Positions 11,541-64,000 of a stretch of DNA of 64,000 nucleotides are shown here, piece by piece; position 1 is the first letter of the stretch, and each line of letters opens with the position of its first letter. The DNA is taken from assembly GCA_963575745.1 (NCBI GenBank), contig CAUYUJ010000001.1, positions 1,364,001 through 1,428,000 of the forward strand. Direction: 5' to 3'. A program made the position numbers and the translations under genes. The notes beneath the pieces were generated by a model that saw only the letters and a program-made list of their open reading frames with translations, was not told the origin of the DNA and made no database searches. Source of the DNA: Prorocentrum cordatum. Lineage: Eukaryota.

Positions 11541-13650
11541 GCCTCCATTCGTTCGCGCCTCTCTCGCGCGCTTGATTCCAGCGCTGGCATTCACGATGCA
11601 GCGAACACTCTGGGAATGCGCCGTTCGTGAAATGGTGATCTGTGAAGCGTGCCGTCCTTGAGAGATGGCAGCGACAAATCCTGAGACCCGGGTGTCCGGG
11701 CAGGGAGTCCATAAGCGGCTCATGTGGCAGCCTGTCTGGTGCCTTCACACAAGATGGTAAATTCCGTCATGCCATACTGGCGAGGCTCTCGTGGAAGTTG
11801 GATGCAGTTTTTTGGCTCGTTGTCGCGTACGGGGGCCCGTGCTCATTGTGCAGTGCCGGAGGTACTCCTGCACCCAGACAGCGACATTGGGGTCTCGGCG
11901 TTCTGCCCCTCCGCGCAAGCCGAGGGAGGTCCGCACAATCTAGTGGTGGGGGTGCACCAGAGTCAGAACCAGCCCACCTGCAGCTCGCCAGATATAGTGT
12001 CATCCCAGTGTCGTGAGGAAACTCCAGACGGAGGGCCCTGCTCGCAGGACCCTTACGAGCAAGCCCTTCGTCGGGCGCAGGATAGTGCTGAAGGTGCTGG
12101 GTGGTTTGCACAGGTGGGCACCCGCCACGCACCATGGCGGCGACGCCAGGGTACGGCTGAAGGACGTACACGTTGGCTGCGCCGAGGGGCGGTCCTTGAG
12201 ACCATCCGAGCCCAGCGCGAGAGTGCGCCGTTCGTGGCACAGGTGCAATTTTCTTTGTTGCAATACGGGATGCTGAGCTTCAAGACTATTCGCGCCGCTT
12301 GCATCCACGTACGGTCGGCTTTTCTACTCGAAGCAACATTGCGACGCTCGTAGCGGTGCGTACGATTAGTTCGTCAAATCCATCCAGAGTTTGCCACCCT
12401 TGCTAACGCAGCATCGAAATTCATGCAGGGTGCTTGTACGAAGCCCTCCAAAACAGGTTCGGTAGAACCATAATGGGGCCTCCTGAGATGTGGCACATCA
12501 ATGTCATAGTTTGGCGTGGTCGTAACCTTGTCTGATTGGTGCGTCCGTTCTCCGCCAGCGCTAAGCATGCAGGTGCTGCGCGCGCAACGCAGCATGAAAT
12601 ACTGTTTACGCAGATGTTGTATTCCATTTATTGTACTGGGCTTCCACTTTTCGACTTTGTTTGTCTATTGCGCGCTCGATGCCAGCGTCGACATTAGTCA
12701 TGCAGCGAACCCCCCAGGCCGTGCGTCTTTCGTGGCACGGGTGCAATGGCCTACGCAATAGTGCATGCTAACCTATAAGATGATTCGCGCCGCTCGCATC
12801 CATGTGCGGTCGGCGTTTCTTCTTGAAACAACCTGGTTACTATCGTATCGTGGCGGTGGGTACGATTGTTGCGCCAAGTTCCATCCAGCTGCTTACAGCC
12901 AACCCACCACCGTGGCCAGCGCGGCTTCGGAAAGCATGCAGGCTGGCTACACGAAACCCTCTAAAACAGATTCGGTAGAACCATCTTGGGGCCCTCTGGA
13001 ACATAGCACTACGATTCCGTAGCGAAGCATGACCGTAATTTTGGCATGTTCGGTGCCCTCTTTCTTCATGGAATATAAGACTCCGTTGGCGCTAAGCATG
13101 TGCGGGACTCGCGTGCAACGCCGTCTGCAAATCTGTTTATGGTGATGCTATCTTCAATTGATTGCACTCGTCTTCACGACTTTCTGATGATGTGCCGCTG
13201 CTGCGCGTTTGATGCCAGCGCCGAGACCAGCGAGGGCCTTTGGAGGGCTGAAATCGCCCACAAAACCGCCGCCATGATTTTTTCTCAACGTGAGGATATG
13301 GGAGATGTCAGACTGCATGTGCAGATCTTCCGGTGGTCTTTGGGCCGCGTTGGGCCGGCATTTGAAGCATGCTGCAGCGGTGTTGGGGCGATCTTGGGCC
13401 GTCGCGGTTGGGTTTTGAGGTAGGTACCGAGCAGCAAAGCTCAGGGAATTCGGTGTTGAGAGCGTTGTGCGAGTTGGGCGTCGCGGCATCGGGGGGCGAT
13501 AGATAAGGGGGCAGCGTCTGTTTGTCTGTAGCCTTTCATCCCTGACGGACGCGTGGGCAAAAATACATCAAAAAGTTAGGTTTGGATTTGTACTTGTACG
13601 CAGGCAGAGGGTGATACAAACCATGCCGTCATTCGTATCGCATATGGGGA

Positions 13651-16500
13651 TCACGTCCAAGATCTGGCAGCCTTGGGCGTGCAACAGTTCACGCGCACGA
13701 CAGAAGGAGACAATTCCAAAGATGTGTGCCCCAAACTGTAGACTGACGTCGCCCACTGCTTTCTCGGGCGCCCCTGGCGTCTGCGGAAGGCCGATTTTTT
13801 TGGCACGCTGTCGGCATCGCACATTGATCGTTTGACTAGTGAGCCGTCGCTGTGCAAAGCGATTTTGTTATAGAAGGCAACTTATCGGTCACTCAGGGTT
13901 GCAGACAACGGCTTGGAGCATGCTCGATCTAGCACGTCGGCGCTCGAAATCCGAGAAAAGTAATAAGGCGCGATCTTCAGGATTGTTCGCAAGTTCTTGC
14001 AGTGAAAGGCGTCCAACTTGGCCTTGTCCTTGTGCAGGTGCCACGACGAGTCCAGCAAATACAGGAGCTTGCTTAGTACACAACTGGAATAAATGTGAAG
14101 CTTTCGCTTCTTTCCGATGGCAGATTGCTTCTACACCTTATATAATGATTGCAATAAAAAAGTGGCTTCTCCAAGTCGTCGTGAAAGTTCGCTTCCAACA
14201 CGCCCGTCATGAGTGATCATCCCACCGAGGTAAACAGCTTCGGTCACGACCTTGATCGACGACCCGTCGAGATCCTTGACGACCTGATGTGTTGATATGT
14301 TAAGTTGTACAGTCTTGTCCGAATTCAGTTCGAGGCCGTATGTCTGCCCTTCCGTTACGATGGTTTCCAGCATGCATTGGAAGTTCTGCGAGCTCGCAGA
14401 GATTAGAGCGGTGTCATCTGCGTACACCATGTTCCGGGTGACCACGTAACCGCGTTCTTGCCGAAGATCAAGCTCAGAAAAAGCGTCGTGCAGCATAACA
14501 GGTTCTACGACGACAAGTAAATAAGGCGATAAAGGACATCCTTGGGCGATGCCAGCTGCCTGGCGTCGTTCTGATGAGTTTCCGCAGTGACCAATAATAA
14601 TGAGATGGCGGTGGGAGCAAATGCTATGCATCATCTCGGCCACTGGCGGCGGCAGTCCAAAGCGAGCCAGGGCAGCGCCAAGGCAGTCAGGCTTCAGACG
14701 GTCGAACGCCTTTGCCAAATCAAGCAGCAGAAGACTAAGCCCGCCATCTGCGCTCAATAATGTTACATTGATCATACGCCTCACCAGCATAAGTGCGGCG
14801 GCGGTTCCCCGGCGAGGTCGAAATCCGAATTGCGATTGTCGTACGCGTGTTTCCGTTCCTCCTTGTAAAAGGCGTCGGTGTAGCATTGCCGCCAAAGCCT
14901 TGCACCCCACTGACAGCAAAGAAATTGGGCAGTAGTTGCTGGGCAGTGTTGCGTCTCCTTTTTTTTTGAAAAGCAATATCACATTGGCTCGCCGCCACTT
15001 TTCGGGAATATATTCGTTGCTTCCCAACGCCTCTGACACTCTCCCAACAAAGCCTTGCACGCCTTCGTATTTCGAGACTCCACTTTCCAATAGTCTGGGG
15101 GTACACCGTCTGGCCCTGCCGCCTTCCCATTCTTCATTTTCCTTAGCACCTGCTGTACTTCAACCATGCTGAAGTTGGACACGTCCACGGGCAGGTCGGG
15201 GCCCAACGAGTTCGAGGATGTTGGCACAACATCTGCAAATTGCACTTTCGACTGGACCTCGAAATAGTCAGCCAAAGCATCCAGGCAGCCTGCTGCATCA
15301 GTAAGATTATTGTTGAGAGCTCGAACTCCAGCATGCTTTGCTTGCGGCTCCTTCCGTAACTTCCGGATTGCACCCTACTTGCCCCCAACTAAAGTATTGT
15401 TAATCCAATTAGTGCGGTCTGTCTGCGCAGCCTTCCGTTTGAGTCTGTTCAGGATTCTTTTTTGCCAACATGTCTTGGGGTATCAATGGGCGGCGTGCTG
15501 GATGTGGTCTTGTCCCCAGGGCGGTAGATGCAGAGGCGAAGGCAGCATCAATTTGTTCAGCCAAAGCGTTAAGCACACAATTTGCGTCGCGTATACCTTA
15601 CCATTTGTCGATTAATCGGCTCGTAAATTCGCACTGGATTGCCGGGTCCCGCACCGATGCTATACCAATATATTTGAACGCATTCGCAATTCTAATTTGA
15701 AATTGGATTTCAATCCCCATTGTCATCAAGTAGTGGTGGTTATTCAAGGCTTCGGTCTGGTGCCTTCTGCAGTACTGGACACAAGGAAGGTTTTATGCGT
15801 GGCAAGCTCGTGATGTATCGAAGCGAACCTCTCTGCGTTAATATCGTTGTCCATGCGTGCCACTCCAAGGTTTCTATACGTGACGCGCTCTTCAAGGGGA
15901 GTGTCGAAAAATGTGTTTGCAATTGCCACGTCCGTAGCAACGCAATGTTCCAGCAAGAGTTCCTTGTTTGAAGACCATCAGCCAAGGAAACATGTTTTTC
16001 TTCACGCAGATGTTGTCGCAGAAGTTTGGCATTGAAAGCGCCCAATAAAATTGCAGTATTGTGTTATGTGGTAGGCCGCGTTGCCTCCAAGAAGTCTGCC
16101 AAAAAAGGGGCGTCCGTCCTCGTAATAGTATTTGCCCTGCGGAGCATAGGCAGAAATGGTATGAAGTACACCGCGTTGAGCTCGGACTCGTAATGAAGCC
16201 AGCCGTGGAGTAAATGCAGGGAACGCCTCTATAGCCGAGCGGGTCCATGAAGCCACGATAAAACCAGCTCCAGTCACAGGGCGTTTTGCATCGTCAAGCT
16301 CCCTTGATAAACAAATCGCGAATCCTTCGTAATCATAGTATTCGGACCCGTGCACTTGCGTTCCTTGCATTGCCAGAATGTCTATGTGCTGAGCCCGCAT
16401 CGATCCAATGACTTCGGTCAGCTCGACATGAGAATCTCCGCGGAGGCATTACACGTTCCAAGTGCCAAGATTTTGGACACGAAATGGTTTCCGATCTCGT
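13651..16500 (-). mobile_element. Degenerate RTE-type LINE (APE + RT) with several frameshifts and stops
   Basis: Minus-strand pieces in order: LALGTCNA, DILAMQGT, GAGFIV, ISAYAPQ, GAFNA (APE); KAAGPDG, YCPISLL, QFGFRPRR, LDLAKAFD, GIAQGCPLSP, YADD, YLGG (RT). RTE-type tail KLHIYSSCVLSKLLY...LDAFH...RRRQGRPRKQW. Element ends not resolved. Confidence 0.9.
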
Positions 16501-19500
16501 CGTGGCTTAAACCATCTATGTTCTGAGCTGGAGGACTGCGCCAACGGAGCCAGACACATCGAAGTACCCTGAGATGGAAAAGAAGATCATGTAGCAGCGG
16601 TCGTTGGCGAAGTAGAAGATGGAGATAAAGAAGGGGAGGGAATATGTCGTGCAAGCCGTACCGCGGCATCGTTCCCGATGCCCCGTGCAATACTTGAGGG
16701 GAGGCCCGCAAGATTTGTCGAGGCCACTTTGCCGCACGAATTGTTAACACGACTGCCTCGCATGTCGTCTCCGTCCGTGTCCTCGTCGACGCGGTGCGTG
16801 CCAGAACGTGCGCAGATAGCAGCAAGCGTGTTGCATGAGACAGCGTCGCCGTTGGGCGAACCACCAAGGGCAACTCCAGCGCAGGGAAGCGATGGAGACG
16901 TAGTCCGCATAGATGTGGAAGTGGAGGAGGACGTCGTGACAGCTTTGCCCAGCAATCGTCCAGCACAGGTCAGAATTGGTATTGGGATGTTGCCAGCGCG
17001 TGTATGTCTTCTCACCTCGGCAGAGGACCCTTGGTGAGCAAACGAATGTAGAGGAGAGGAGGCTGGAAAAGGACATGAAGATAAAAAGGTAGATAGACGG
17101 CGCGATCTTCTTGAAGTGCGGAAGGGGGTAGAGCGGGTTGCCGTTGTTGACGGCCTCGAGCCAGAACCTCGGCGACCGTTTCTAGGGAGCGGTCCCTCCC
17201 GGCAGCACAGTAGCATTGCACCGCAACAGATGCAATTCCAAAGTCACGTCAAGAATGTGTGTCCCCGACAGAAGTGGTCCCATTTATTGTTGTGATCCCC
17301 GTTGTGGTCATGGATTTCCCCTCCCGGGTTGCAGGGCCGTGTTCCGTCGCACGCGGCCCCCCAGTTCATATGCATGTGTCGTGGCAAAACGAGCGTGTAG
17401 CACCCGTTGCCGTATCTTGGCCATGGCGTACACCAGTGGTAGCCACGTCGTAATTGCATCTTTCCTGGTGACCTCCGTTGTGAGCCAGCCCAGCCGGCGT
17501 GTAAGGCCAGCAGTCGGCACACGGACGCCCCGGCGCAGGTCGTCATTGGCATCACATTCCCAGTAGTGGTGTTCGAGCGTGGGCACGTATGGCCCTCTTG
17601 AAGTGCGGAAAGGCGTACACTCCGCGGACAAGGGCAGCGAGGGCGGCAGAAAAGGCGCTTTCTAGGGCCCCTTTAAGGGGCCCTTTAGGGGCCAAAGGGG
17701 GCCGTTAGGGCCCGAAGTGTACACTTCTCTTCCCCCCATCATTGGTCGCCCCCCCATGAAGCGACGCCCAAGGGAGTATGGGGCTGGCATCGCCTCCAGA
17801 AAGATCGCAGAGGACCTGCCAGAGCTGATGACGGGCATCCCAGCACGCCCCCGCGTGCCGCTGGCGATGTGGCTTAGACCCAGCCTCGCTACCGCAAAAG
17901 ACCCGCCACCGTGGTATTGCGGGGGGGGGGGGCCTCAGGGAGTAGGCGGGGCTTCGGCGAGTGTGGGGGGCAGGGGTAAAAGAACGGAAGGAGTTGGAGT
18001 AACAAAGGGGGAGCGTGTTGGGCTCGACACGGTGGGTGGAGGGTTTCGATATCGATTTGCCGGGAGCAGCTATGAAGAACACTCACACTCGGTGGGGGCA
18101 ATATACACAAGTTGCAGAGTGTGCGGTCTATGTGTGAAGCATGTTCGTCCCGCCTATCCGATATTACGCTTGTGTTGCAGATGTTACGTTTGCTTCGCAG
18201 AGGCATAGACATGTGCACAATATCTTTAAATTTCGCGAGACATACGGACCGACAGACAACACATACCTTCGTCGCCATGAATGCGTAGCTTTACCGTGTC
18301 GCTCGTCTGGGAACACGCCATTCGCGATGTGATGTGTGGGTCATATTTTGTGAGCTTGAGTTGTGTTGGGATGCTGTGTGCTTGGGTGTTTTTGTTTCAG
18401 CTGTGCGAATTTCGCGTGATTGTCATGCCGTCCTGGGTTGTGCCATATTCTGACGGTTGCGTGAACAGTCGATCTCCAGCAGAGCGGGTTCGCAATGATG
18501 TTATTGGCCATTATGCCAGGGGGATCTTGGGCTCGTTGGGAGCAGTCCTGGGGCCATCTTGGGGCCAGCTGGGAGCCTTTGGGGCAGTGTTGGAGACGCC
18601 TCGGGGCGTGTTTCGTGCCCTTTGGAGGGTCTTTTGGCCGTTGGCGGGCATCGTGCCCTTTGGAGGGCCTTGTGCCCGTTGTGGCGTTGGGGGCTTCTGG
18701 GCAGCGGAGGCGCGGGGAGCGCGGCGGCACGACGCGGAGGATGGGTGGCGCCGCCCGAGGTCGTGGAGAAGCTTGGCGGCGAGGACGCCGCCGAGGCTCG
18801 CCTGGCGCCCCGACGGGCCCGCCGAGCCTGGAACCGAGCCCGACGAGCCCGGGGCCGAGTCCGAGCTCGAGACCGAGCTCGAGCCCGAGCCCGAGCCCCG
18901 AGCCCGCGCCCGCGCCCGAGCCCCGAGCCCGAGCCCGGGGCAGCAAGGCGCGAGCTGGCATGAAGGCACCCGCGAGGAGCGACGATCGAGGACCCTGTGG
19001 AGGCGCGAGCTCCCGAGGTTCGAATCTGTTGGGCGTTTTCTGTCGGCCCCTGTTGCGGGCCTCGGGAGGCCCTGCGTGGCCGCGGTCAGGGGTGCGCCTC
19101 GAGATTCTGGCCAGAGCTCGCCCTGGGGCAGGTCCCCAGAGCCGACTTTTGACCCCCAGCCCCAGACCGCCTCGCGTACTGAGGCGAGCAGGCCTTTGGT
19201 GGGCCCTCGCCCGGGTCCACGTCGATTCGAACGGTCCGCTTCGATATCGCCTCTGGCCAGTCCAGCTCGATTCGATGTCGATGTCCTGACGGTCCGATGC
19301 GGCCGGATGCTTGCATGGCGCTGTTGTGCATCTTAGCGCGGCCGATCCAATTCGATTCCGATTCCTTGCCGGCGCAGCCAGATCCGCCGCACTCTCCGAT
19401 TCGGTCAGATTCCCCGATGCGGTGCTGGCTGGTCCTGCCCTCGCTGGGCCCCTGGGCCGTCAAGAAACGATTGGGTATGCAAATAGACGAACACGTAAGA

Positions 19501-21891
19501 GTGACTTTTCGCCCGAGTGACCTTTGGTACGGGCCCAACGGGGCCCCCCGATCGCCGAACGCGATGCGGTGGTAGCGTCTTGCGCGCTTGCGGCCCCCAA
19601 AAAGCCGCGCACCAAAGGTCACTCTTACCCAAGGCTATTATTGCGTGTAGGTGGCGATTTCGTGGGCCGTGTTCGTTTCGATGTCATTTTGCAGCAAAGG
19701 CGGAACAACGACGGAACGAGGGGAAACGAAAAAATAACGACAACGACAACGACAAACATTGTTTTGTTCGAGCCCTGCTTTGGGCCGTCAAGAAAGAATT
19801 GAGGATGCACAGAGCCAGCTCCAGGGAAGGGGTCGGGATTCCTGGTGCCCGTGCGCGCCCAGGTTTGGCCCCCCCGCGTCCCACGTTAAACCGCGCACCG
19901 AAGGTTACTCTTGCCCAGGGTCACTCTTGCGTGTAGCCGACAAGAAACGAGCGGGGATGCAAAAAGCCAGGCCCAGGGAAGGGGTGCATTGACCCTGGCT
20001 TGGGCGCGGGATCTTGCAGGATGCTGCAGGATCTCGCAGGATCTTGCAAAGCCTGACTGACCCGGGTTTGCATTGACCTAGGTCAGTGGATGCCCGAAAC
20101 AGGTGGGGATGCAAAAGCCAGCCCCAGGGTAAAGTCGGGCCTGTCCCTCTACAGAAGGAAAAACAAAAAAATAATCAAAAAACAGTATGGGACGATTTTT
20201 GTTACTATGCTTGTCTATGTTTGAGTTTGTTTTTGTGTTTTTTATTGCGAAGGCCTTAAGGCCGGTGCCGCCGACCCTGCAGTCGGAGGCTACGAGCAGA
20301 ACAAGGACGTTGATGAGCAGGAGACGGAGGACGTCAGGGAGCAGGAGGGTGAGGAGGACGAGGAGGAGGAGGAGGATGAGGAGGAGGAGGAAGAGGGGAA
20401 CAGGAGGAGGAGAAGGAAGAGGAGGAGGAGGAGGAAGAAGAGGAGGAGGATGAGGAGGAGGAGGAGGAGTTGGAGGAGGAGGAGGAGGAGGAGGAGGAGG
20501 AGGAGGAGGAGGAGGAGAGGGGGAAATGAATAGGAGCAGGACGAGGCGATCAGGGCCTGGGGCTTGTGAGTCCTGGACTTTTGGGGGGGCTGGTTCCTGG
20601 TGCTGGGTCCTGGGAGGAGGTCCTCGGGGCTAGGTCCTGGGATGTCCCGTGGCCGAGCGTCCTGGAGGCCGGTTCGGTTCTGGAGGGGGACGGAGGCAAG
20701 AGGAGAGATGAGGATCGAGGGAGGAGGGGGGAGGGAGGAGAGGGCGTGGTAGAATGCTTCCTGAGGCTTTGTGTGGGCCCCAGGACCCCCAGGGGGAGTC
20801 GTATCTGACGCGGGACCCCCCCCCCCTGGGACCCCCCCCCCGGCAGGGAAGGGGCTTCCCTTCGACTCAATGACAACGTTGCTCTTGAGGGGGAGGCCCT
20901 GGAAAGGCGGGGGGGAGCGGCGACGGGCCCAGGGAAGAGGGGGAAAGGGGAGGAGGAGAGACGGGCCCAGGGAAAGGGGGAGCGCAGGGACAGGAGACGA
21001 CTGGCCCGTGGCGGTCGCGAGCCGAGGCTCGCGCCTCGGGTGCCGGGGTTCGGGGGCAAGGGTCCTTGGGGGGGGATGGGCGCAGGTCCTCGGCCGTTTT
21101 CGACTCGAGGTTCCATAGGCTCTCGGCCGTCTTGAATTCGAGGTGCTAGGCTTTCGGTCGTGTTCGCGGTTCGCGGCGGCTCTCCAGCCTCGGGATGCGG
21201 TCCAGCAGCCGCGCCTTGCCGAGAGCGTTCTCGGGGTTGCCCGGATCGTCCCGAACGGCCGCCGGAGGCACGAGTCGAGTGATGGCGCAGAAACTACCTG
21301 GAGATAAAGGGGGTCTGATAGCCCTAACCCGCCCAGGGAGGTGCGGTTTCGCTGTCGGGTCTTGTCGCCGATCTATCGGCGATGCATCGCCGATTCCAGG
21401 TCGATGTTTCCCCCCCTATGCCGGTCCCCCCCGATCGTTGCCCCTCAGGGGTCTGCGGGCCCGTGAATCAAGGCTCGAGGCTCGAGGCTCGAGGAGGTTC
21501 GATGATGGAGGTTCGAGCATGGCAGTTTTTGGCGCGTTCTGAGTTCTTTCCTCGAGCAGCTGAGCTGACTGGGGACCTGTGGTGGTACCACTGCCTTGGA
21601 CCATCCTCCAATTCCTTCTGCTCATCCTCCTGCTCACCTGCCACCCCCTCTCCTCCGATGTACGCAGCTCCCCTTCTCCGATTGCACATGACACGATGGG
21701 GTCTCTTCTGGAGTTCCAGGTCGCCCATGACACTCGCCCAAGTCAGCGCAATGCCCTCCCCCTCGCTCCTCTCCCACACTCCTCGCTCTTCGACGACGTC
21801 GACGTCGGCGACGGCGGCGGCGACGACGACCTCGGCTCGGCAGGCCACCGAGAGCCCGCGCGCGTCGGCGGCCGCGCGCGCCCCCTCGGCG

Positions 21892-23746
21892 ATGGCAGCG
21901 CGGGGCGCCGCCGAGGCCGGGGCCGCGGAGCCAGGCGCCGCCAGCTGGGCTGGGCTGCTGAAGGCCCGCCTGCGGGGTGGGGGCCCGGATGGCCCCGGGC
22001 CCCGCGGCCGCCTGTACGGCGCGTTCGTGATGAGCAACTGCCCCCTCGTGGCGGAGCTGATGGGCTGCTGCGGCTACGACTTCCTGGTGGTGGACATGGA
22101 GCACTCGCCCGCGGGCGTGGGCGGAGCGCTGGCCATGCTCCAGGCGGCCCGCGCCGCCGGCGTCGCGTGCCTGCTGCGGGTCCCCGTCAACAGGCCGGAG
22201 GTCATCAAGAAGGCGCTGGACCTCGGGCCCGAGGGCCTGGTGGTGCCGCTGGTGGGCAGTGCGGGCGAGGCCCGAGGGGCCGCGGCCGCGTGCCGCTACC
22301 CGCCGGAGGGCATCCGCGGGGTGGCCTACCCGATGGTGCGCGCCAGCCGCTGGGGCCTGGACGCTGGCTACGGCGAGGGCGCCTCGGACCGGCACCTGCT
22401 GCTCTGCCAAGTGGAGACTCGGGAGGCCGTCGAAGACGCCGGCGCCATTCGATGATCCTCAGGACGTGTGTTAGCCCAGTGTGTGTGTTACCCCGTTCAA
22501 CCCAACCAGTCGATCACCACATCGCCTTCGTCGTAGTGAAGTGCCTCACTGGGCAAACACACGTAAGCTCCAACACACGTTCTGAGGATCATCGAGCCAT
22601 CCTGGACGTGGACGGCGTGGACGGCATCTTCCTCGGCCCGCTCGACCTCTCGGCCTCGCTCGGGCGCAGGGGCCAGCCCGGCCACCCCGACGTCGCCGCC
22701 GCGCTGGCGGCGGCGGAGGCCGCGGCCGCGGCGCGGCCCGGGAAGGTCCTGGCTGGGTTTGCTGGCGGCCGGTCGCCCGCGGACATGTTCGCCGCCGGCT
22801 ATCAGGGATCCCCTAACCCAGACCCCCTCGGGCAATGAAAAAATCATGACGAGAGGTTTTCCAAGTTTCGGCCACTGGAGGCCCTTACCGGCCCTCGAGA
22901 CCGTCAAAAAACGATTCAGGATGAAAAACCGATCCAGGGGAATGGCTCGAGAGTTCCAGGGGTCGACGCAATGAAAAAATCATGACGTCGGGGGTCTGGG
23001 AACGGTGTGGTGACCACACCGCGTGGTGAGTCAGTGGGGATTCAGGGTCGCCGGACGGTCTTTGGGCCTCGGGTCTTTCTCCGAGGACGTCTCGGGCGAC
23101 GGGGGCCTCCGAGGTCCCAAAACCAGGCAGTGACGCACCGCGCGGTGAGGTCTTTGGAGATTTTGAGGTCACCACGCGGTCCGCCACCACCCTCAGATCT
23201 GACGTTGCAACAAAAAATTCAACATCACAAAAAATCACCACTGGAGCCCCAGCCCCCGGCGTTCTGCAACATTCTTCGAGCCGGATCGATCCGTGAGGAC
23301 CCCAGGGCCCGCAGCCAGGCGAAAACGCCCGGCGTGACAAAATTGCAACGCCGGGATCTGAGGGGCTCGGGGGGCTCCCAGAGATCCGAGGTCGTGATTT
23401 TCTCTATACGGGGTCCCCGGAAGTCTCGACCCATCCCCCAGGACCATTCCTCCCGAGTCGTTTTTTGACAGTCCCGGGGCCCGGCGAGAGCCGCTGGAGG
23501 CCGAAAATCTAGAAAGACCTCCGTCTTGATCTCTTCAATACACGTTGGATCTCGGGGCGGGCAGGCTACCACCTGGTCGCGTGCGCCGCGGACGTGACGC
23601 TGCTGCGCGACGCGGCGCGCCGCGACGTTGCCGCGGCAGCGGCCGCGGCCGAGGCCGCCGAGGGCCAGCCGGCGCGGCAGAGGCGGCGGCTCGAGCCGGG
23701 CGCGGGCGCCGCGGCGCCGTCCGCGGGGGGCCCGCCCCCGAGGTAG
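21892..23746 (+). CDS. HpcH/HpaI-family class II pyruvate aldolase (2-keto-3-deoxy sugar-acid aldolase-like). Coding blocks 21892-22448, 22601-22797, 23565-23746 (311 aa when joined)
   Basis: Family motifs [88 protein letters not shown]. The joined blocks total 936 nt, stay in frame and end at TAG 23744-23746. The start ATG is inferred. Confidence 0.92.
22449..22595. mobile_element. 147-bp MITE / Introner-like element inside the aldolase CDS
   Basis: 24-bp terminal inverted repeats with one mismatch (tcgatgatcctcaggacgtgtgtt 22449-22472; aacacacgttctgaggatcatcga 22572-22595). 5-bp TSD gccat at 22444-22448 and 22596-22600. Removing the element plus one TSD copy restores EDAGAILDVDG. Confidence 0.92.
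22798..23564 (+). other. GC-AG spliceosomal intron (767 bp) of the aldolase gene
   Basis: Boundaries gccg|gctatcag ... gggcag|gctaccac. Splicing gives the in-frame family-like sequence [15 protein letters not shown] donors and AG|G acceptors are typical of dinoflagellates. Confidence 0.85.
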
Positions 23747-56370: not shown

Positions 56371-57028
56371 CTTGCTTCCTTCCCTCTTTCCTCAACCACC
56401 CCGCTGTGTTGGGGAATCGTTGTGGAGAGAGCGCCCCGCGTGCACTCCTTCCTGCACCTGCCTCCTCCCTGCTGCCATCCCTGCCCCAGCCGTCCGCATG
56501 TCCATGCCAGCACGGAGGAGGAGGAGGAGGAGGAGGAGGAGGAGGAGGAGGAGGAGGAGGAGGAGGAGGGGGAGGAGGAGGAGGAGGAGGAGCAGGAGTG
56601 GGAGGAGAGGGAGGAGCAGGAGGAGGAGGAGGAGGAGGAGGAGGAGGAGGAGGAGGAGGAGGAGGAGGAGGAGGGAGGAGGAGGAGGAGGAGGAGGAGAA
56701 GAGGACTCCTCCTCCTGGTCCCATGTCCGTGCCAGCACACCACTCGCACGTTTCGTGGCGCCGTGTGGAGCTCTAGCTACAAGGCCCCAGGGGCCGGGGG
56801 TGGGGGGGGGCATGCGGTCCCCCGGCCGAGTTCGGCGCGCTCCTGACACCTTTCGTGGCCCCAAGGGGGGTGGGGGGGTGAGGGTCGCAGGCGGTCCATC
56901 AGCCCATTTCGGTCACACGTTTCGTAATCCTCCTCCTCCTTCTGGATCCTCCTCCTCCTCCTCCTCGATCCTGCTCCTCCTCCTCCTCCTCCTCCTCCTC
57001 CTCCTCCTCCTCCTCCTCCTCTCCTCCT

Positions 57029-57065
57029 TCCGTAGCCATTTTGGCTCAAGCCATTTTGGCTCAAG
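57029..57065 (+). other. Dinoflagellate spliced leader TCCGTAGCCATTTTGGCTCAAG (57029-57050) plus relict SL CCATTTTGGCTCAAG (57051-57065)
   Basis: Exact match to the DinoSL consensus DCCGTAGCCATTTTGGCTCAAG, followed directly by SL nt 8-22, the known relict-SL form of recycled dinoflagellate mRNAs. Confidence 0.97.
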
Positions 57066-57214
57066 GTACCCATGTCGCCCTGCGGCCGCATGGATACCGC
57101 TGGTCCGCGGCCAGTCCACGGTGTTTCTCCTCGCCTTCACGGAGGGAGTTGGGCGCCCTCATTCATTGCCCTCCCACCGTCCCGCGGTCTCGATCATATT
57201 CTCTGTGGCGTGCC

Positions 57215-58613
57215 ATGGGCGGATCAGCGAGGCGGTCGAAGAGGGAGAAGGAACGGCGTCGGAGGCGCCGCGAAAGTGATCATGATGTGTCTGTCTCTTC
57301 TGTGTCTGCTGGTTCCTCTGGCTCTGACAAGCCCAGTCGTGAGCGTTCAGAAAGAGGTGACCGACGCCGACGCCCGCCACGCAGTGCCTCTGATGGTCTA
57401 CGACAGAGCCAAGACCATGAAGCCCCTGAGGTCTCTCGGACTCCCTCCCTGCCGTCTGCGAACCAGAGTATGGCGGATGCGGTCCTCGAGATGGAACGGG
57501 ATGGCGTACGGCTCTCGCAGGTTCCCACATTCCCGCCTTCGCAGCAGCGTGTTGATCCGCATGACCCTTGGGCTAGGGCTGCAGCCGATGCGATTCTCAC
57601 TCCTCCTGCTTTCCCTCATGCACAGGTGGAGGGCACAGCGACGCCACGAGATGACATCACTCCTACGATGCCTGCTGGACATGGTGAGGGAGCCGAGGGT
57701 GGTCCTGAATGGGCTACCTATGTTTCGCAGGTGGTTGCTTCTCAGCTGCAGGCGCACGCGGCGAACATCACTGCGCAAGTCCAGAATGCTGTTGCCACCA
57801 CTCTGCAGCAAGCCCAGGGCACGATCATCTCGCAGCTCCAGGCCCACCTCGCCCCGACGATGCAGAGGGTTGACGGACGCGACCTGGCCATTGGCGACCT
57901 TCAGAGGAAGCAGCTCGCCATGGAGGACGCCCAGAAAGAGATGCGCGCAGACATCAAGCGGATCAATAACCGCTTGGCACTATCGGAGGAAGAACACTCA
58001 GTGGTGGACATCGCCCGTCTCCTGGGCTTTGACAGAGATCCCTACCCCACGATCTTCACGATCAACGCTCCCGATGATGTTGCCCCCGACGAAGTGCGCG
58101 GAGCCATCGCATCTTGGATCAGCGACGCCAAGCTTGATGCGGAGGATGCAGTGCTGCGCGGACGGGGACCCAGCAGACGGTTCGTCTTGGAGGTCAAAGG
58201 TGGTGCGACAGGTATCTCTAAGGCCATCACCTTGGCCAAGGCTCTCCGCTTCCCCTCGGGGGAATGGAGGAGGTTCTCGGCTAGGCAGCTTTCTGGGGCC
58301 ACTGGTCCTTTTGTACGTTGGCCCCGACAAAGCCCCCAAGCAGATCAGACGCGAGCAGCAGTCCAAACGATTGGCCGCTATCGTTCAGGAGAAGATGCCC
58401 AACAAACGCTGGTGGGCTACCAGAGCAAGAGGCTTGGTGCACATCGAATGTCAGCCGCTGGTTGAGGTGGTGGTCAGAGGTGCCAGCGAGCCTTCAAGAC
58501 TTGCATGGAATCAAGCAGTGGTCGCCCAGCACCAAGTGGACGTGGCGGGCATCACGGCTGCCTTCAATCGTGCCTTCGAGACGGTGGATACCAGTTCCTG
58601 GTCGTGGTCCTGA
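57215..58613 (+). CDS. LINE ORF1-like protein (basic/Ser-rich N-terminus, coiled coil, RRM/CTD-like part), needing a +1 frame change near 58307-58312
   Basis: ATG 57215 (MGGSARRSKREKERRRRR), heptad-like Q/A/L segment (AIGDLQRKQLAMEDAQKEMRADIKRINNRL). The protein-like sequence continues in the +1 frame as LYVGPDKAPKQIRREQQSKRL...SSWSWS to TGA 58611-58613, just before the endonuclease domain. Domain identity is inferred from composition and position. Confidence 0.7.
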
Positions 58614-61600
58614 CCAATGGGCTCAGCCGTGGCGGATTGAAACGCTTGAGAAGGGTTCTCGACAAGAGGTCAGGGCCGTCTCATGGAATGCCAGAGGCCT
58701 GTGTGGACTCAGCCCCAAGGGGCGCAGGAGAGCTCTATGTCGCTCGAAGCTCAAGAGGCTCGAACCCTTTCTTCGCATGCGAGCGGTCGTTCTACTTCAA
58801 GAAGTGCATGGATCTGAATATGACTTACGCTTTTTGTCGAGGCAGTTTCCTTATGAGTACCGAACTTTTTTCAGCGCAGCTTCGTCACCTGGGAGAGGAG
58901 GTGTTGCGATTTTGATTCCATGGTACAAGGAGGCGGATCTCGAGAAGCTCCCCTCTGGTGTTACCCCGTCCTTTCTGCCCCGATGTGTGGTTCCTGGGCG
59001 CATCCTCTCTCTACAAGTCCGAGGTGCTGGTCAAGCCGTTCACATTTTGAATGTGCATAACTTTGATTTGGACGCCCAGGCGCGCCAGGCGGCGCGAACC
59101 TTGTGGAGGCGTGCGGCTGCGTGGGCCCAACAAGATGAACGGCGTCGTTGCTTCATTGCCATTGGCGACTTCAGCGTGGCGGATGTCGCCCCAGACTCCC
59201 TTCTGCGGCCTGCGGCTCGGCGTGATGTGGAAGTTCGTGGACAACAGCATCAACCATTCTGGCGTGCGCTGTTTGACTTTCGCACGGTGGAGGTGGTCTC
59301 TGGCGTGCCGACACACTTCTGCATGCGCACCCAGACATGTTCGACCATTGATAGGCCTTTTATCTCGCGAACGCCACCTTTCATTCTCGAAACGGAGGTC
59401 ACGCTGTCGGCACAACAGGAAGCAACGCGGCTGTCTGACTGGCATCTCAGCGATCATGCTCTGCTTCTTCTACAGCTTCGACCGAGAGGGAAGAAATCAC
59501 CAACGGAGCGTTCGATTCCCGATTATGTCTTTCGTGTGCCCGGGTACAAGGTTGAGCTGAACAAATACCTGGCACACACCGACTGGACTGGCTGCTCTGT
59601 GGCTGAGCGTTGGTCTGCCACCAAAGATTTCATGATCAGAGCAGCGGCACGTGTGCGCAACCTGCTCCACCAGCTGCCTCTGGATACCTCGCGCGATGGG
59701 GCTGAAGACTCGAGGGGGATCACGCTTCGTAGTATTGCTCGGGCCATTTGGCAGCAGGATTCTCATCTGGCATCGTTGCTCCGACATGATACTGAGTGCG
59801 GCCAGCGGTTCCTGTATGTGGACAATGGTGCAGTCTCTCTTTTGAATTCCTCTGAGTTCGCTGAGACGGTCATTCGGACGAACGCTGAGTGGCATGAGCG
59901 GCTCCAACGCCACGCGGCTGCCCAGGCGCTTCGTTGTGATTCTCAACGTCGCGAGCCTGCTGAACTGTCCCGGGAACAGTGGAGGAAGATACAGAGGACT
60001 TCAGCGAGGAGGGCCCGCCTATGGAGTGACTCGCGCCGCCAGCTTATTCTGAACGGTATCAGGCACAACTCGTCTGGCCACTCCACGATGCCTCCTGCAG
60101 TTGCAGACGTTATCTGTTCTCCACATGTGGACCCCCAAGAGCAGGTGATACGACTCAGTACTCAGCAGTCATCGGGGGAGCGTGTCCTGACGCGGATGGG
60201 AACCTCGCTTTCTTTCACTGCGAAGTCTGAGTCTTGCATATCTGAGGCATCCCTTCAAGCCGCTGTATCGGACTCACCTGGTGGTCGGACTGCTGCCACG
60301 GGCAGGAGCGACCTTAATGTCGGCCGCCCCGCGCCTCGTGAGTCTACGGTTTCAGCGGCCGCTGTAGGGATGCGCGGGGGGAGTCTTCAAGCCGCTGTAT
60401 CGGACTCGCTTGGTGGTCGGGCCACGCCTGCGGGCAGTGGCGACCTTAATGCCGGGCCCTCCCCTGGGACCGCGCCTCGCGAGCCTGCGGTTTCAGCGGC
60501 CGCTGTTGGCTCTTCTGGCCGCTCTTCTACTACGTCGTCCTCGCTATCGGTCTCTTCTTCTTCGTGTTCACTGGCGAGTGGATTCTTGACGGAATCTGAG
60601 GTGTGTGAGGAGTTGCATGTCCAACCTGAGGCTTATATTTCTGCTGGGCATACGGGTTCTTCGGATGGTGCGACTGCCCGCGGAGCGGTGGACATGGCAT
60701 CTGCGCTTCAACGCCACTGGGCGGAGGTGTTCAGAGCGAAGAAGTCTCCGTCTCGCGATGTTCTCCATGGTTATCTTTGTGTTCATCTTCCTGTCTACCC
60801 TGCGCCTGAGCTCAGGCCGCCATCGATCGATGACCTCAGAGCTGCCCTGCGCAAGGGCAAACCCAGTGCGCCTGGCCCAGACAGGCTGCCCTACCGTGCG
60901 TGGCTGGCCCATGATGATGCGGTGGAGACTCTTTATCTGGTCATGTTAGATATGTTCAGCGGTATTGGCTGCCCATCGGGCTTCAATCATCACTTGTTGT
61001 GCTTCATTCCGAAAGATGAGCGGCCAGAGGACCTGATCGATCTTGTGCGGGCTCCTGAAGAGCTAAGGCCGCTTGCCCTGAAGAACACGGACTCAAAGGC
61101 CATCGCCAGTACCATTAATGTTCAGTTACGCACCATTGCGGAACAGAGATGCCACCATGTCCAGCGCGGCTTTGTCCGTGGAAGACAGCTTACCACCCAC
61201 ATCGCGGAGCTCGACACGTATGCGCGCATGGCTGGTGGACATATGTATGCGAGTGACCTCAAACCTGTCTTCATTTCGTTTGATGTATGTGCTGCCTTTC
61301 CATCGATGAGCTGGGTGTGGATTCAGATTGTACTGGGCTATCATAAGATCGCCACGGGCTTTCTCATGGCCACTCGAGCACTGTATCATGATATGCAAAG
61401 CTGGACTTGGTGTGGTGAGTCCTTGCAATTTCTCTTTCATGTATCGGCGGGGGTGGCCCAATGCTGCCCACTTTCTGGTTCCTTATGGGCGTTGACGTTT
61501 GACCCCTTCCTGCACCATCTGTGCAATGGCAATGTGGAGGGCTACGGAAGTGTGAAGGCAGCTGATGGGTTCGATGTTGGCAATACTGGCTACCCGATGG

Positions 61601-63039
61601 CGACTGGCCCTGGTGAGATGGCGCCTTTGATTGCTGGATCATGTGCGGATGACGTTGGTGTGGTACTACCTGCACTGAAGGAGGTGACGCGCGTTGCGCC
61701 CGTGTTTGCAGCTGCACAGGAGTTGGCGCACTTGCGCCTGCAGAGCAAGAAATGTTTCGTCGTGCCGCTGTGGACCCGTGCATCCCCTGAGGTGCACGAC
61801 CTAGTCGGGTCCCGCCTTCGGTCTTTTGCTCCGGCCTTTTCGGCCTTTCCCATCAGGGGCCGTGCCAAATACCTGGGGATGCAGTTCGGTCCCGAGGCCA
61901 CGCTCGAAATGCAGTGGGAAGCGGCAAGCACGAAGCTCGCACATCGAGCGCGCCTTGCTGCTTCGACGCGGGCGCCTGCAGAAGCATCTGCGCGGCAGTA
62001 CAACTCCTGCTCTCTTCTGGTCCTGTCTTACCTCGTTCAGTTCTTTCCCCTCCCCTCCTTCTTCCTCCGGAGGGATCAATGGCTGCTGCACAAGCTCCTG
62101 CGGCTCCCCCCAAACACGTTTAAGCGTGATGAGATCCTAAGCCTTCATCAGTGGTTCCCTGGATCGGCGCCTGCGGCGATGGCGGTTCTTGGTCGTTCTG
62201 CTGCGTGGCGGTTCGGGCTTCACACGTGGACGAAGGCCAAGGATTTCACACTTCTCTTGAGAGAATGGCATGTGTGGCATGGTGCAACTGTGCGTCATGT
62301 CCGAGAGGAATGGTCTCCGCGGTGCTGGGCCCAAAGTAGGTCGATTGCCCAATTTGTTCTGTCTGTCATGGATGCCTCCCCCTCCGCCGTTTTCTCTCGG
62401 ACTGCTCTCCGAGAGGCGGAGCGGAGGATGGTGGAGGAAAGGCGTGCAGCTTTGGAGAGTGGAAGGCGACCTAGGATCCAGCGTATCCTCTCCCGCTCCC
62501 TTTCCTCGAGCCTCTTTCCTGACCGCCTCCACCTCCTCTTCCTCCGTCGCCTCCATGCCTGGTTCCCGTCCCTGGAGCTCCCCGCCCCCCGAGACTTGGA
62601 AGCGAGGTGGGCGCTCCTGAGGACGATTCTCTCGCGCTCCCAGCCCTCGTGGGCGTGGGCTCATTTGAAGAGTCTTGCAGGTGGATGGATCACGTCAGCC
62701 AGAATGCCTGTCCTCGTGCGCAGGAGCTGTCGCTTAGGGTGCGAAGGATGTGTGGACTCCCTTCCTCACTACCTCTGCTGCCCTCGTCTTCTCCACCTTC
62801 TGTCTCGTCATCGCCCTCGTGCTTTTCTCCCGCCCTGCCCCATGGCGAGGATTGGGCTTGGAGACGAGGGGCAGTATGACCGTCTCTTCTCGAGGGCGGA
62901 CGCTCACTGTTTGGTGGTCCTGGCCTTCCACTTTTACCATAAACTAAAAGCAGAACAGGATGCTGCGCCTGGCTCTGCTCGTGATCTCGAATATCATTTG
63001 AAGATTCTGAGAGGTGCCAGAATTGCAACGGGCGCCTGA
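58614..63039 (+). CDS. LINE ORF2: AP-like endonuclease, reverse transcriptase and C-terminal zinc knuckle (frame open from 58285, true start unknown)
   Basis: APE motifs VSWNARGL, LLQEVH, GGVAILI, IGDF, TIDR, LSDH. RT motifs SAPGPD, RPLALKNTDSK, QRGFVRGR, FDVCAAFPS, GVAQCCPLS, CADD, KYLG. C-terminal CRLGCEGCVDSLPHYLCC. No stop codon for more than 4.7 kb. Confidence 0.95.
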
Positions 63040-63229
63040 GATGGAGGATTGCTTTCCGAGGCACGTGCGCTCCTCCTCTCCTCCTCCTCCTCTTCTCCTC
63101 CTCCTCCTCCTCCTCCTCCAGGCGGAGCAGTAGCGCGAAGAGGCGCCCGGGCGGGGGAAGGCCGCGGGCCAGTAGGTCGCCGCTCCGAGCGGCGAGAAGA
63201 AGGGCGCCAGGGGGCTCCACCTGATCCCC

Positions 63230-63990
63230 CAGAGGGGGGTTCACATGCGGTCCACCGGCCCATTTCGGCACACCCTTCACCTTCACACGCTTCGTAACCG
63301 CATATGGGGGCTACACCTGAGCCCTCAGAGGGGGGGGGTCGCATGCGGTCTCCAAGCCAATCTGGCACACCCCTCACACGCATCGTGGCCCAATGGGGAG
63401 CTCCACCGAAGACCCCAGTGGCAGCGCCCGCATGCGTCCCCGGGCTCATTTCGGCAAACCCCTCACACGCTTTGTAGTTCCATCGGGAGCTCTATCAAAG
63501 GCTCCAGTGGCAGCGCCCGCATGCATCCCTGGGCCCATTACGGCACATCCTTCAAACGTTTCATGGCCCCGCAGGGAGCTCCACCGAAGGCCCTACTGGC
63601 AGCGCCCGTGTGCGTCCCTGGGCCAATTTCGGCACACCCTTCACACGTTTAGCGGCCCATAGGGAATTCCACCGATCAGCTGCGAGCGAGGGAGGGGGGA
63701 GTGAGAAGGAGAAGGCCTCCTCAGAAGGCGGCGAAACTTCTCAGAAGGCCTCCGGCCTTCTGAGAGGTTCTGGGCGTCTTCGGGGAAGGCTTCTAGAACA
63801 TTTGTCAGAAGGCCGTGGGACATCCAAGCCTTCTGAGAAGGCCCGCCCCTTTTCACTTCCCCCACGGACTCGCCGCCGAACCGAGGGCCCCAGTGGCAGG
63901 GCCCGCATGCGCCCCCAGTTCCATTTTGGCACAAACCTCACACGTCTTGATGCTACACAGGGGGCTCCACTGAAAACGAGATTCACAAGT
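63230..63990 (+). repeat. Degenerate tandem repeat (about 90 bp; gcagcgcccgcatgcgtccc / ccatttcggcacaccc), same family as 56720-56930
   Basis: gcggtcca..gcccatttcgg..cacacg.ttcgtaa occurs on both sides of the LINE insertion. Confidence 0.8.
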
Positions 63991-64000
63991 GCGGTGTTCA

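What the first reader, a model, noticed from the sequence alone, without database searches (positions are those of the whole stretch)
56927..63119. Insertion into (TCC)n with a 15-16-bp TSD: the target may supply the polypyrimidine tract
Seen: about 100 bp of (TCC)n lies directly 5' of the SL and the tract resumes after the element. The irregular 16-mer ctcctcctctcctcct is duplicated (57013-57028, 63070-63085), and the same host repeat family flanks both sides. Inference: the element may target (TCC)n/(GGA)n microsatellites, which are abundant in this window, in the orientation that places a pyrimidine tract before the SL's AG dinucleotides. That would build a trans-splice acceptor at each new site and couple target choice to expression.
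Basis: partly seen in the sequence, partly recalled or inferred. Interest (0 to 1): 0.85.

Follow-up and report, generated by a model that had tools for sequence, protein, structure and literature searches.

The report
Spliced-leader-headed LINE inserted in (TCC)n
A jumping gene of a dinoflagellate, copied from an RNA that carried the cell's standard 22-base leader, landed in a TCC repeat and duplicated 16 bases of it; nothing yet shows that it seeks such repeats.

Summary
Window 57029-63069 is one full-length LINE of the APE + reverse-transcriptase type, in dinoflagellate DNA. It starts with a complete DinoSL plus one truncated relict SL and has no A-tail. It interrupts a (TCC)n tract that lies inside an 89-bp satellite. 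The irregular 16-mer at 57013-57028 and 63070-63085 occurs nowhere else in the window. An irregular 16-mer matched at 0.11% of random junction pairs drawn from the window's other TCC/GGA tracts, so this is a real 16-bp target-site duplication.

It says the family targets (TCC)n in one orientation to build a trans-splice acceptor. No second copy with flanks could be obtained: no genome is held, and the public contigs are short.

Indirect evidence leans against it as a general rule:
- One other SL-headed LINE (L018) and 16 other genomic SL relics have no pyrimidine-rich upstream flank.
- 4 of those 16 abut other microsatellites, two of them purine-rich.
- Amphidinium acceptor sites show no consensus beyond AG.

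TCC/GGA tracts cover 2.4% of the window. Orientation-specific targeting by the endonuclease, as in known microsatellite-specific LINEs, would predict the same picture. I found no description of an SL-headed LINE in the papers searched.

The parts
56735..56927 (+). Host 89-bp-type satellite units upstream of the tract
   Evidence: 72-84% identity to the units at about 63230-63675, same orientation
56928..57012 (+). Host (TCC)n microsatellite, part upstream of the TSD
   Evidence: TRF 56928-57028, period 3, 33.3 copies; read
57013..57028 (+). Left copy of the 16-bp target-site duplication
   Evidence: Identical to 63070-63085 and found only at these two places in the window
57029..57050 (+). Complete 22-nt DinoSL, the first base of the element
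   Evidence: Matches DCCGTAGCCATTTTGGCTCAAG as defined in PMC7245778
57051..57065 (+). Truncated relict DinoSL (15 nt, starts after the SL-internal AG)
   Evidence: relic model quoted
57066..57214 (+). 5' UTR; begins with GT, which fits the GH motif reported just downstream of dinoflagellate 3' splice sites
   Evidence: motif from bioRxiv 10.1101/2020.10.14.339549
57215..58613 (+). ORF1 (no Pfam family). Homology to Prorocentrum cordatum models changes reading frame at the T4 run 58309-58312
   Evidence: A minority of X1 contigs lack one base at 58309-58311 (table 4)
58318..63039 (+). ORF2, open for 1573 codons, with no ATG before the endonuclease domain
58678..59367 (+). APE-type endonuclease domain (ORF2 residues 121-350)
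   Evidence: Pfam Exo_endo_phos, E 9.9e-08, above the curated cut-off
61054..61764 (+). Reverse transcriptase domain (ORF2 residues 913-1149), with a CADD motif
   Evidence: Pfam RVT_1, E 3.3e-08. Best solved relative is human L1 ORF2p, E 2.4e-05
62728..62784 (+). Conserved C-terminal Cys/His motif (C1471, H1484 invariant)
   Evidence: Alignments A1 and A2; sequences
63040..63069 (+). 30-nt 3' UTR with no A-tail and no repeat tail of its own
   Evidence: The last 120 nt show no special fold (z -0.29)
63070..63085 (+). Right copy of the 16-bp target-site duplication
63086..63119 (+). Rest of the host (TCC)n tract
   Evidence: TRF 63070-63119
63230..63675 (+). Host 89-bp satellite downstream
   Evidence: TRF period 89 at 63364-63675. 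Summed depth above 100,000 in X1

Best explanation
This is a single, recent, full-length insertion of a dinoflagellate LINE. The element has ORF1 and an ORF2 with an APE endonuclease, a reverse transcriptase and a C-terminal Cys/His motif.

Its RNA is SL trans-spliced, and the cDNA was copied to the first base of that RNA. Each new copy is therefore born with a DinoSL at its 5' end. The full SL plus one truncated relict records at least two such generations. It also shows that an AG inside a parent's genomic SL served as acceptor.

Integration was by target-primed reverse transcription. Two nicks 16 bp apart were made in a pre-existing tract of about 135 bp of (TCC)n inside an 89-bp satellite. 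The bottom-strand nick lay in GGAG^GAGG. This gave the exact 16-bp TSD. cDNA synthesis began 30 nt after the ORF2 stop codon, without an A-tail.

A new copy has no upstream promoter of its own. It must be transcribed by read-through and freed by trans-splicing at one of three AGs (57034-57035, 57049-57050, 57064-57065). Here the flank happens to give an ideal pyrimidine tract.

Whether (TCC)n is a preferred target is open. If it is, endonuclease or primer specificity is the more economical cause. Selection for a splice acceptor is a secondary possibility.

Shown: the anatomy, the TSD, the SL plus relict, the missing A-tail and the flanks. Inferred: trans-splicing of the element's RNA, TPRT by its own proteins, and read-through expression.
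For: Anatomy. Pfam finds Exo_endo_phos (E 9.9e-08) and RVT_1 (E 3.3e-08). The closest solved protein is human L1 ORF2p.

SL and relict: both are exact. The relic model is taken from passages of PMC7245778 and PMC12014239.

TSD: 16 of 16 bases match, and the 16-mer is unique to the two junctions. Irregular 16-mer matches arise in 176 of 158,085 random tract pairs. The same satellite lies on both sides.

Multi-copy family: X1 contigs 85-95% alike cover all 30 bins (8,922 pieces). Protein fragments of 87-100% identity and 206 representatives at E 1e-30 or better were found. The best full-length relatives are 31-39% identical, from Prorocentrum cordatum.

Independent second case of an SL-headed APE LINE: L018 has an SL at 78-99, then ORF1, then an ORF2 with Exo_endo_phos (E 9e-07).

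Local target abundance: TCC/GGA tracts make up 2.4% of 57,859 host bases. Simple repeats are reported at 13% (A. ostenfeldii, PMC3229502) and about 19% (P. glacialis, PMC7245778) of other dinoflagellate genome data.
Against: The copy may not be autonomous. ORF1 homology changes frame at a T4 run, and ORF2 has no ATG before the endonuclease. The first point could also be an assembly error or a feature shared by most copies.

No RNA evidence was obtained. No empty-site allele was seen. The bottom-strand primer (…GGAG-3') has no complementarity to the last bases of the element, so how priming starts is unexplained.

Landing in a tract type that covers 2.4% of local DNA (0.43% for TCC on the + strand) is unlikely by pure chance. 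Some preference therefore cannot be dismissed.
Confidence: 0.8

Rival explanations
1. The family targets (TCC)n/(GGA)n in the orientation that puts the pyrimidine strand before the SL. Every new copy then gains a polypyrimidine tract plus AG, and target choice is coupled to expression.
For: At this locus about 53 nt of AG-free pyrimidines end 6 nt before the first AG of the SL. The relict SL shows that this AG was the acceptor in a parent copy. The insertion hit a tract type that covers only 0.43% (TCC on +) or 2.4% (either strand) of the window. Dinoflagellate introner-like elements are reported to recruit splice sites from their TSDs, so the principle has a precedent.
Against: There is only one copy. 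L018, another SL-headed LINE, has a flank with a pyrimidine fraction of 0.37. All 16 other nuclear-type SL relics have 0.03-0.67, and two of them sit after purine-rich (AG)n and (GACA)n. L210 went through at least three SL cycles without such a flank. No consensus beyond AG was found at A. carterae acceptors. The tract has no adenosine for a branch point within 66 nt of the first AG.
Confidence: 0.1
2. A microsatellite-specific LINE. The endonuclease nicks the GGA strand, or read-through (UCC)n at the RNA 3' end anneals to the nicked GGA strand. This fixes both target and orientation, as in Kibi (TC)n, Koshi (TTC)n, Waldo, Mino and Dong. Any help to splicing is a by-product.
For: APE-type LINEs specific for microsatellites are known (PMC3812793). 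The nick inferred from the TSD lies in GGAG^GAGG. The element has no A-tail, so priming is not on poly(A). Hitting a 2.4% target by chance is unlikely.
Against: There is one copy only. The last bases of the element do not pair with the primer, and there is no repeat tail of the element's own. 4 of 16 unrelated SL relics also abut microsatellites of four different kinds. Microsatellites may therefore simply be common landing sites in these repeat-rich genomes.
Confidence: 0.2
3. Endonuclease-independent insertion at a pre-existing break. The (GGA)61 tract at 56514-56698 and the (TCC)n tract 230 bp downstream form an inverted purine/pyrimidine pair prone to unusual DNA structures and breakage.
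For: The inverted arrangement of the two tracts.
Against: A clean 16-bp TSD and an untruncated 3' end are the marks of endonuclease-dependent TPRT. This rests on established knowledge of L1 and was not tested here.
Confidence: 0.04
4. There is no TSD. The two 16-mers are a chance match within a repetitive tract, or an assembly artefact.
For: Matches of 16 or more bases are common between random positions of pure TCC tracts (15.7%).
Against: The 16-mer is irregular, is unique to the two junctions, and abuts the element ends exactly (0.11%). The left end coincides with the first base of the SL.
Confidence: 0.03

Closest known systems
DinoSL-tagged retrogenes (the 'recycled cDNA' relic-SL model, as described in PMC7245778, PMC12014239 and PMC6050394)
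   Same: A full DinoSL encoded in DNA, followed by a relict that starts at CCATTTT. The copy derives from a trans-spliced mRNA.
   Different: Here the tagged RNA encodes the retrotransposition machinery itself. The papers read treat retrotransposons only as the presumed source of reverse transcriptase. The 2018 review states that the mediating type is unknown and favours LTR elements.
Microsatellite-specific APE-type LINEs: Kibi (TC)n, Koshi (TTC)n, Waldo (ACAY)n, Mino (AC)n, Dong (TAA)n (PMC3812793)
   Same: An APE-type LINE sitting inside a short tandem repeat in a defined orientation.
   Different: Their specificity rests on many copies, and here there is one. They are animal elements of other clades. 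None is reported there to carry a spliced leader.
Human L1
   Same: ORF1 plus ORF2 with APE and RT, a C-terminal Cys-rich motif and a TSD in the 7-20 bp range. It is the best solved-structure match.
   Different: L1 has an internal promoter and an A-tail and nicks TTTT/AA (recalled). This element has an SL instead of a promoter-bearing 5' UTR, no A-tail, and an inferred nick in GGAG/GAGG. The RT match is weak (E 2.4e-05).
SL-gene-specific LINEs of trypanosomatids and nematodes (SLACS, CZAR, CRE, NeSL-1; recalled, not from a call)
   Same: An association of a LINE with spliced-leader sequence.
   Different: Those elements insert into SL RNA genes and carry restriction-like endonucleases. Here the SL is at the element's own 5' end, the flank is (TCC)n, no SL-gene intron or T-run follows (compare the SL genes), and the endonuclease is APE-type.
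Introner-like elements of dinoflagellates (bioRxiv 10.1101/2020.10.14.339549)
   Same: Mobile elements whose splice signals are partly recruited from the TSD or flank. This is a precedent for target sequence completing a splice site.
   Different: They are DNA transposons that create cis-spliced introns, with short TSDs of 3-8 nt. They are not a LINE using trans-splicing.

Membership tests
APE-type non-LTR retrotransposon (LINE) | ORF2 with an N-terminal APE endonuclease and a central reverse transcriptase | tested here: met
   Pfam Exo_endo_phos at residues 121-350 (32.4 bits, cut-off 24.5) and RVT_1 at 913-1149 (33.9 bits, cut-off 29.6)
APE-type non-LTR retrotransposon (LINE) | Flanking target-site duplication of variable length, no terminal repeats | tested here: met
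   Exact 16-bp TSD. No other part of the element is repeated in the window apart from the simple tracts and one internal 125-bp duplication
APE-type non-LTR retrotransposon (LINE) | 3' end with poly(A) or a simple-repeat tail (many clades, not all) | tested here: not met
   The element ends 30 nt after the stop codon, directly at the TSD
APE-type non-LTR retrotransposon (LINE) | Upstream ORF1 | tested here: met
   ORF1 at 57215-58613 is homologous to the N-terminal parts of the P. cordatum models P0004, P0005 and P0007. It has no Pfam family and one frame change
Microsatellite-specific LINEs (Kibi/Koshi/Waldo/Mino/Dong type) | Most copies lie in the same microsatellite in one orientation | not testable with these tools
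   No genome is held. There is no second copy in the window. Public contigs are 200-360 bp. Collection scans found no copy of the family
DinoSL-tagged retrocopy (relic model) | Genomic DinoSL at the 5' end, followed by a relict truncated at the SL-internal AG | tested here: met
   22 of 22 and 15 of 15 bases match. Definition from PMC7245778
SL-gene-specific LINEs (SLACS/CZAR/CRE/NeSL-1) | Insertion within an SL RNA gene, with the two gene halves on either side | tested here: not met
   The upstream flank is (TCC)n and the downstream flank is (TCC)n plus satellite. Seven SL-gene copies from other sources show the SL, then GTAC, then a T-run about 35 nt later. That pattern is absent here apart from the four bases GTAC
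SL-gene-specific LINEs (SLACS/CZAR/CRE/NeSL-1) | Restriction-enzyme-like endonuclease (recalled) | tested here: not met
   The endonuclease is APE-type

The most novel reading that the evidence does not exclude
A dinoflagellate LINE lineage has given up a promoter of its own and lives on SL trans-splicing. Its endonuclease picks (TCC)n in one orientation, so every new copy is born with a pyrimidine tract, an AG-free zone and the SL's own AG. A working trans-splice acceptor is thus assembled from target plus element, coupling integration-site choice to expression.
Probability: 0.1. Interest if true: 0.8.

Novelty: new variant of a known kind. Interest (0 to 1): 0.45.

Why it matters
More than 20% of genes in some dinoflagellates carry SL relics. 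Yet the review read here says it is unknown which reverse transcriptase makes them, and it favours LTR elements (PMC6050394; PMC11453091).

A LINE that itself carries a full SL plus a relict and has a clean 16-bp TSD is direct sequence evidence of two things. APE-type LINE RNAs are trans-spliced, and they are copied end-to-end by target-primed reverse transcription in these genomes.

It also poses a testable question: how does a promoter-less LINE get expressed at a new site? The comparison of full-length with 5'-truncated copies given under next steps would separate integration preference from selection for splicing.

The specific (TCC)n-acceptor idea is attractive, but it currently rests on one locus.

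Tried and rejected
- Own genome: not held.
- Second copy in the window: none by blastn or tblastn.
- Sequencing runs: no RNA holder was listed. The laid contigs of X1 and X2 are 200-360 bp and 85-95% alike, and alignments are cut at both TCC tracts. No joint from 57028 to 63086 (an empty site) was listed. The one long joint (56758 to 63367) is satellite to satellite with 24 bases on the shorter side, so it is not an empty site. Of the loose ends, 425 rows were not shown.
- Metagenome scan with ORF2: no relative. Alignment A1 had no conserved stretch. Alignment A2 gave 79 distant loci, of which only L018 carries an SL.
- Viral-collection scans for the family: none found.
- 3'-end structure: the last 120 nt fold no better than shuffles (z -0.29).
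- Reading as an insertion into an SL RNA gene: rejected.
- Idea that the GTAC after the relict is the start of the SL-RNA intron: all 7 SL-gene copies have GTAC there, but a four-base match is too short, and L018 has GTGA. Left unproven.
- ORF1 of L018 against ORF1 of the window: no similarity.
- Earlier notes of this scan: nothing relevant.
- Literature: searches, and passages read, gave no description of a DinoSL-headed LINE. The search failed on a term format and was not repeated. Supplements were not opened. Lists of retrogene annotations there could include reverse-transcriptase genes.


Full report
**What is there.**

The window is dinoflagellate DNA. Positions 57029-57050 spell the 22-nt dinoflagellate spliced leader (DinoSL, DCCGTAGCCATTTTGGCTCAAG as defined in PMC7245778; passages read). 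Positions 57051-57065 repeat its last 15 nt. That is the published signature of an SL-bearing mRNA that was copied back into the genome, transcribed, and trans-spliced again at the AG inside the old SL.

Behind the SL lie these parts:
- A 149-nt leader.
- ORF1 (57215-58613). It has no Pfam family.
- A 1573-codon open ORF2 (58318-63039). It carries an APE-type endonuclease (Exo_endo_phos, E 9.9e-08), a reverse transcriptase (RVT_1, E 3.3e-08) and a conserved C-terminal Cys/His motif.

The closest solved protein is human L1 ORF2p (E 2.4e-05). The closest full-length proteins on record are unnamed Prorocentrum cordatum models at 31-39% identity.

The element ends 30 nt after the stop codon. It has no A-tail and no repeat tail of its own, and the 3' end has no unusual fold.

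**The observation.**

TRF finds (TCC)n at 56928-57028 and again at 63070-63119. The irregular 16-mer CTCCTCCTCTCCTCCT sits at 57013-57028 and 63070-63085. It abuts the first base of the SL on one side and the last base of the 3' UTR on the other. The neighbouring bases differ, so the repeat is exactly 16 bp.

It occurs nowhere else in the window on either strand. I checked how easily such a match arises inside this kind of repeat, using random junction pairs drawn from the 9 other TCC/GGA tracts of the window:
- Some match of 16 bases or more exists in 15.7% of 158,085 pairs. A duplication in a pure tract would therefore prove nothing.
- An exact match of an irregular 16-mer arose in 176 of 158,085 pairs (0.11%).
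- The junction 16-mer is absent from all 1,029 16-mers of those tracts.

The flanks outside the tract belong to one 89-bp satellite family in the same orientation. The simplest reading is one insertion into a pre-existing tract of about 135 bp of (TCC)n, with a genuine 16-bp target-site duplication.

**How it most likely works.**

Shown:
- An exact TSD.
- A cDNA that reaches the first base of an SL-capped RNA.
- No A-tail.

Inferred:
- The element's RNA is trans-spliced.
- Integration was target-primed reverse transcription with nicks 16 bp apart. The bottom-strand nick falls in GGAG^GAGG on the purine strand.
- A new copy, having nothing upstream of its SL, depends on read-through transcription and on trans-splicing at one of three AGs (57034-57035, 57049-57050, 57064-57065).

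The single relict shows that in a parent copy the first of these AGs was used. Whatever a 3' splice site needs upstream of that AG had to come from the parent's flank. At this locus the flank is indeed about 53 nt of AG-free pyrimidines ending 6 nt before the AG.

One weakness is that the tract holds no adenosine within 66 nt of that AG for a branch point.

**Is (TCC)n a chosen target?**

This needs other copies, and I could not get them.
- No genome is held for this window.
- The window has no second copy.
- Public contigs of run X1 show that the family is multi-copy and diverged. All 30 bins are covered by pieces that are mostly 85-95% alike. The pieces are only 200-360 bp long and break at the TCC tracts.
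- A library search found only short fragments of the same family (87-100% identity, 68-107 aa). It also found 206 more distant representatives at E 1e-30 or better.
- Scans of the metagenome and viral collections found no copy of the family.

Locally, strict TCC/GGA tracts cover 2.4% of the 57,859 host bases. TCC on the + strand covers 0.43%, and half of that is the insertion tract itself. A chance hit is unlikely but not extreme. The locus was also singled out after the fact.

Other dinoflagellate genome data hold far more simple repeat: 13% in A. ostenfeldii clones and about 19% of P. glacialis assemblies.

**Indirect tests of the premise.**

1. The second metagenome scan gave 79 distant LINE loci. 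One of them, L018, is an independent SL-headed APE LINE: SL at 78-99, then ORF1, then an ORF2 with Exo_endo_phos (E 9e-07). Its RT is 29% identical and its ORF1 is unrelated. Its 77-nt 5' flank is mixed and A-rich, with a pyrimidine fraction of 0.37 in the last 30 nt.

2. An exact scan for the 21-nt SL gave 160 occurrences in the viral and prokaryote-genome collections.
   - I set aside 131 occurrences in AT-rich contigs of giant-virus bins; this class also caught the MAG locus L213, which has only 5 nt of flank.
   - I set aside 7 SL RNA gene copies.
   - I set aside 4 further SL copies inside viral-bin contigs (L080, L103 twice, L144).
   - I set aside 2 occurrences with 0-2 nt of flank (L146, L209).
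   - That left 16 nuclear-type relics. Their upstream 30 nt have pyrimidine fractions of 0.03-0.67 (mean 0.42), and none approaches the 1.00 seen here.
   - Four of the 16 abut a microsatellite, but of four different kinds: (TG/CG)n, (TCA)n, (AG)n and (GACA)n. Two of these are purine-rich.
   - Caveats: these loci are mis-binned contigs of unknown organisms. Two (L200, L207) lie on long contigs labelled bacterial. Nothing is known about their expression.

3. [quoted passage not shown]

Together these points argue that a pyrimidine flank is not a general requirement or hallmark of SL-tagged retrocopies. They also suggest that microsatellites of any composition are frequent neighbours.

**A rival that predicts the same picture.**

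APE-type LINEs specific for microsatellites are known: Kibi (TC)n, Koshi (TTC)n, Waldo, Mino and Dong. Their mechanism is described as not well understood, with endonuclease cleavage believed to play the major role (PMC3812793). Such specificity, or annealing of read-through (UCC)n to the nicked GGA strand, would fix both target and orientation without any role for splicing.

Orientation bias alone therefore cannot decide between the models. The contrast between 5'-truncated copies, which lack the SL, and full-length copies can.

**State of the copy.**

The TSD, the SL and the relict are all perfect and ORF2 is open, so the insertion is young.

ORF1 homology to the P. cordatum models shifts frame at a T4 run (58309-58312). 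A minority of X1 contigs lack one base there, which gives the in-frame version (table 4). ORF2 has no ATG before the endonuclease. This copy may be defective, mis-assembled at a homopolymer, or translated unconventionally.

**Comparison and novelty.**

It works like an L1-type LINE (TPRT, TSD). It is tagged like a dinoflagellate retrogene. It sits like a microsatellite-specific LINE.

It is not an SL-gene-specific element of the SLACS/NeSL kind. The flanks are not an SL gene, and the endonuclease is APE-type (family features recalled).

In three full-text searches and in the passages read I found no description of a LINE headed by DinoSL. The 2018 review states that the element type mediating retroposition is unknown and favours LTR elements. 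Supplements were not opened.

I rate this a new variant of a known kind. The specific (TCC)n-acceptor hypothesis remains a one-locus idea, with about a one-in-ten chance of being right as stated.

Noticed in passing
L080-L198 (viral-contig loci), e.g. L165 at 13, 3126, 6015, 9229 (+); L185; L187: 131 of 160 exact DinoSL occurrences lie in AT-rich contigs, nearly all from giant-virus bins. All 131 have A before CCGTAG. 123 of 131 have an AAA[AT]TGA motif 47-49 nt upstream, and there are several per contig ahead of different downstream sequences. The motif resembles the mimivirus-type early promoter (recalled). This looks like virus genes with a genome-encoded host spliced leader at their predicted 5' ends. 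A search on 'giant virus' + 'spliced leader' + 'dinoflagellate' gave 16 papers, none about this by title or abstract.
   Followed up: partly
L018:1-3206: A second, unrelated SL-headed APE-type LINE on a 3.2-kb metagenome contig. It has a full SL at 78-99, ORF1 at 221-1189, and ORF2 from 1190 in the same frame after one stop codon. Its 5' flank is not pyrimidine-rich.
   Followed up: partly
L207:380-440 (- strand): A bare 21-nt SL sits between two copies of a 19-nt sequence. This looks like an SL-only insertion with a 19-bp duplication. The contig is 209 kb long and labelled as a bacterial MAG, so mis-binning or chimerism is possible.
   Followed up: partly
window 58309-58312 and 58613-58696: ORF1 homology to relatives changes frame at a T4 run. 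A minority of related public contigs lack one base there. ORF2 lies in a third frame and has no ATG before the endonuclease domain.
   Followed up: partly
window 63230-63999 and 56735-56927: The 89-bp satellite has an enormous summed depth in public runs: above 100,000 in X1 and 13,000-18,000 in X2. Its units contain an SL-like stretch; for example, 63921-63935 matches the SL 15-mer with 2 mismatches.
   Followed up: no
window 56514-56698 vs 56928-57028: A (GGA)61 tract lies 230 bp upstream of the (TCC)n tract in inverted orientation. Across the window GGA tracts are strongly strand-biased: 1,147 nt of GGA against 247 nt of TCC on the + strand.
   Followed up: no
window 60253-60368 and 60385-60509: A tandem duplication of about 125 bp (79% identity) lies inside the linker of ORF2, between the endonuclease and the RT.
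   Followed up: no
window 14131-15159 (-): A different reverse-transcriptase ORF (RVT_1, E 4.8e-28) has no detectable similarity to this element and no SL nearby. The neighbouring ORFs have no Pfam family.
   Followed up: partly
window 21328-22835 (+): A HpcH/HpaI aldolase-type gene is split over two frames (E 1.5e-23 and 1.1e-08). It is the only recognisable cellular gene found, and it is on the same strand as the element.
   Followed up: no
L199, L202, L212, L214: 4 of 16 nuclear-type genomic SL relics start directly after a microsatellite: (TG/CG)n, (TCA)n, (AG)n and (GACA)n. All four are near contig ends.
   Followed up: partly
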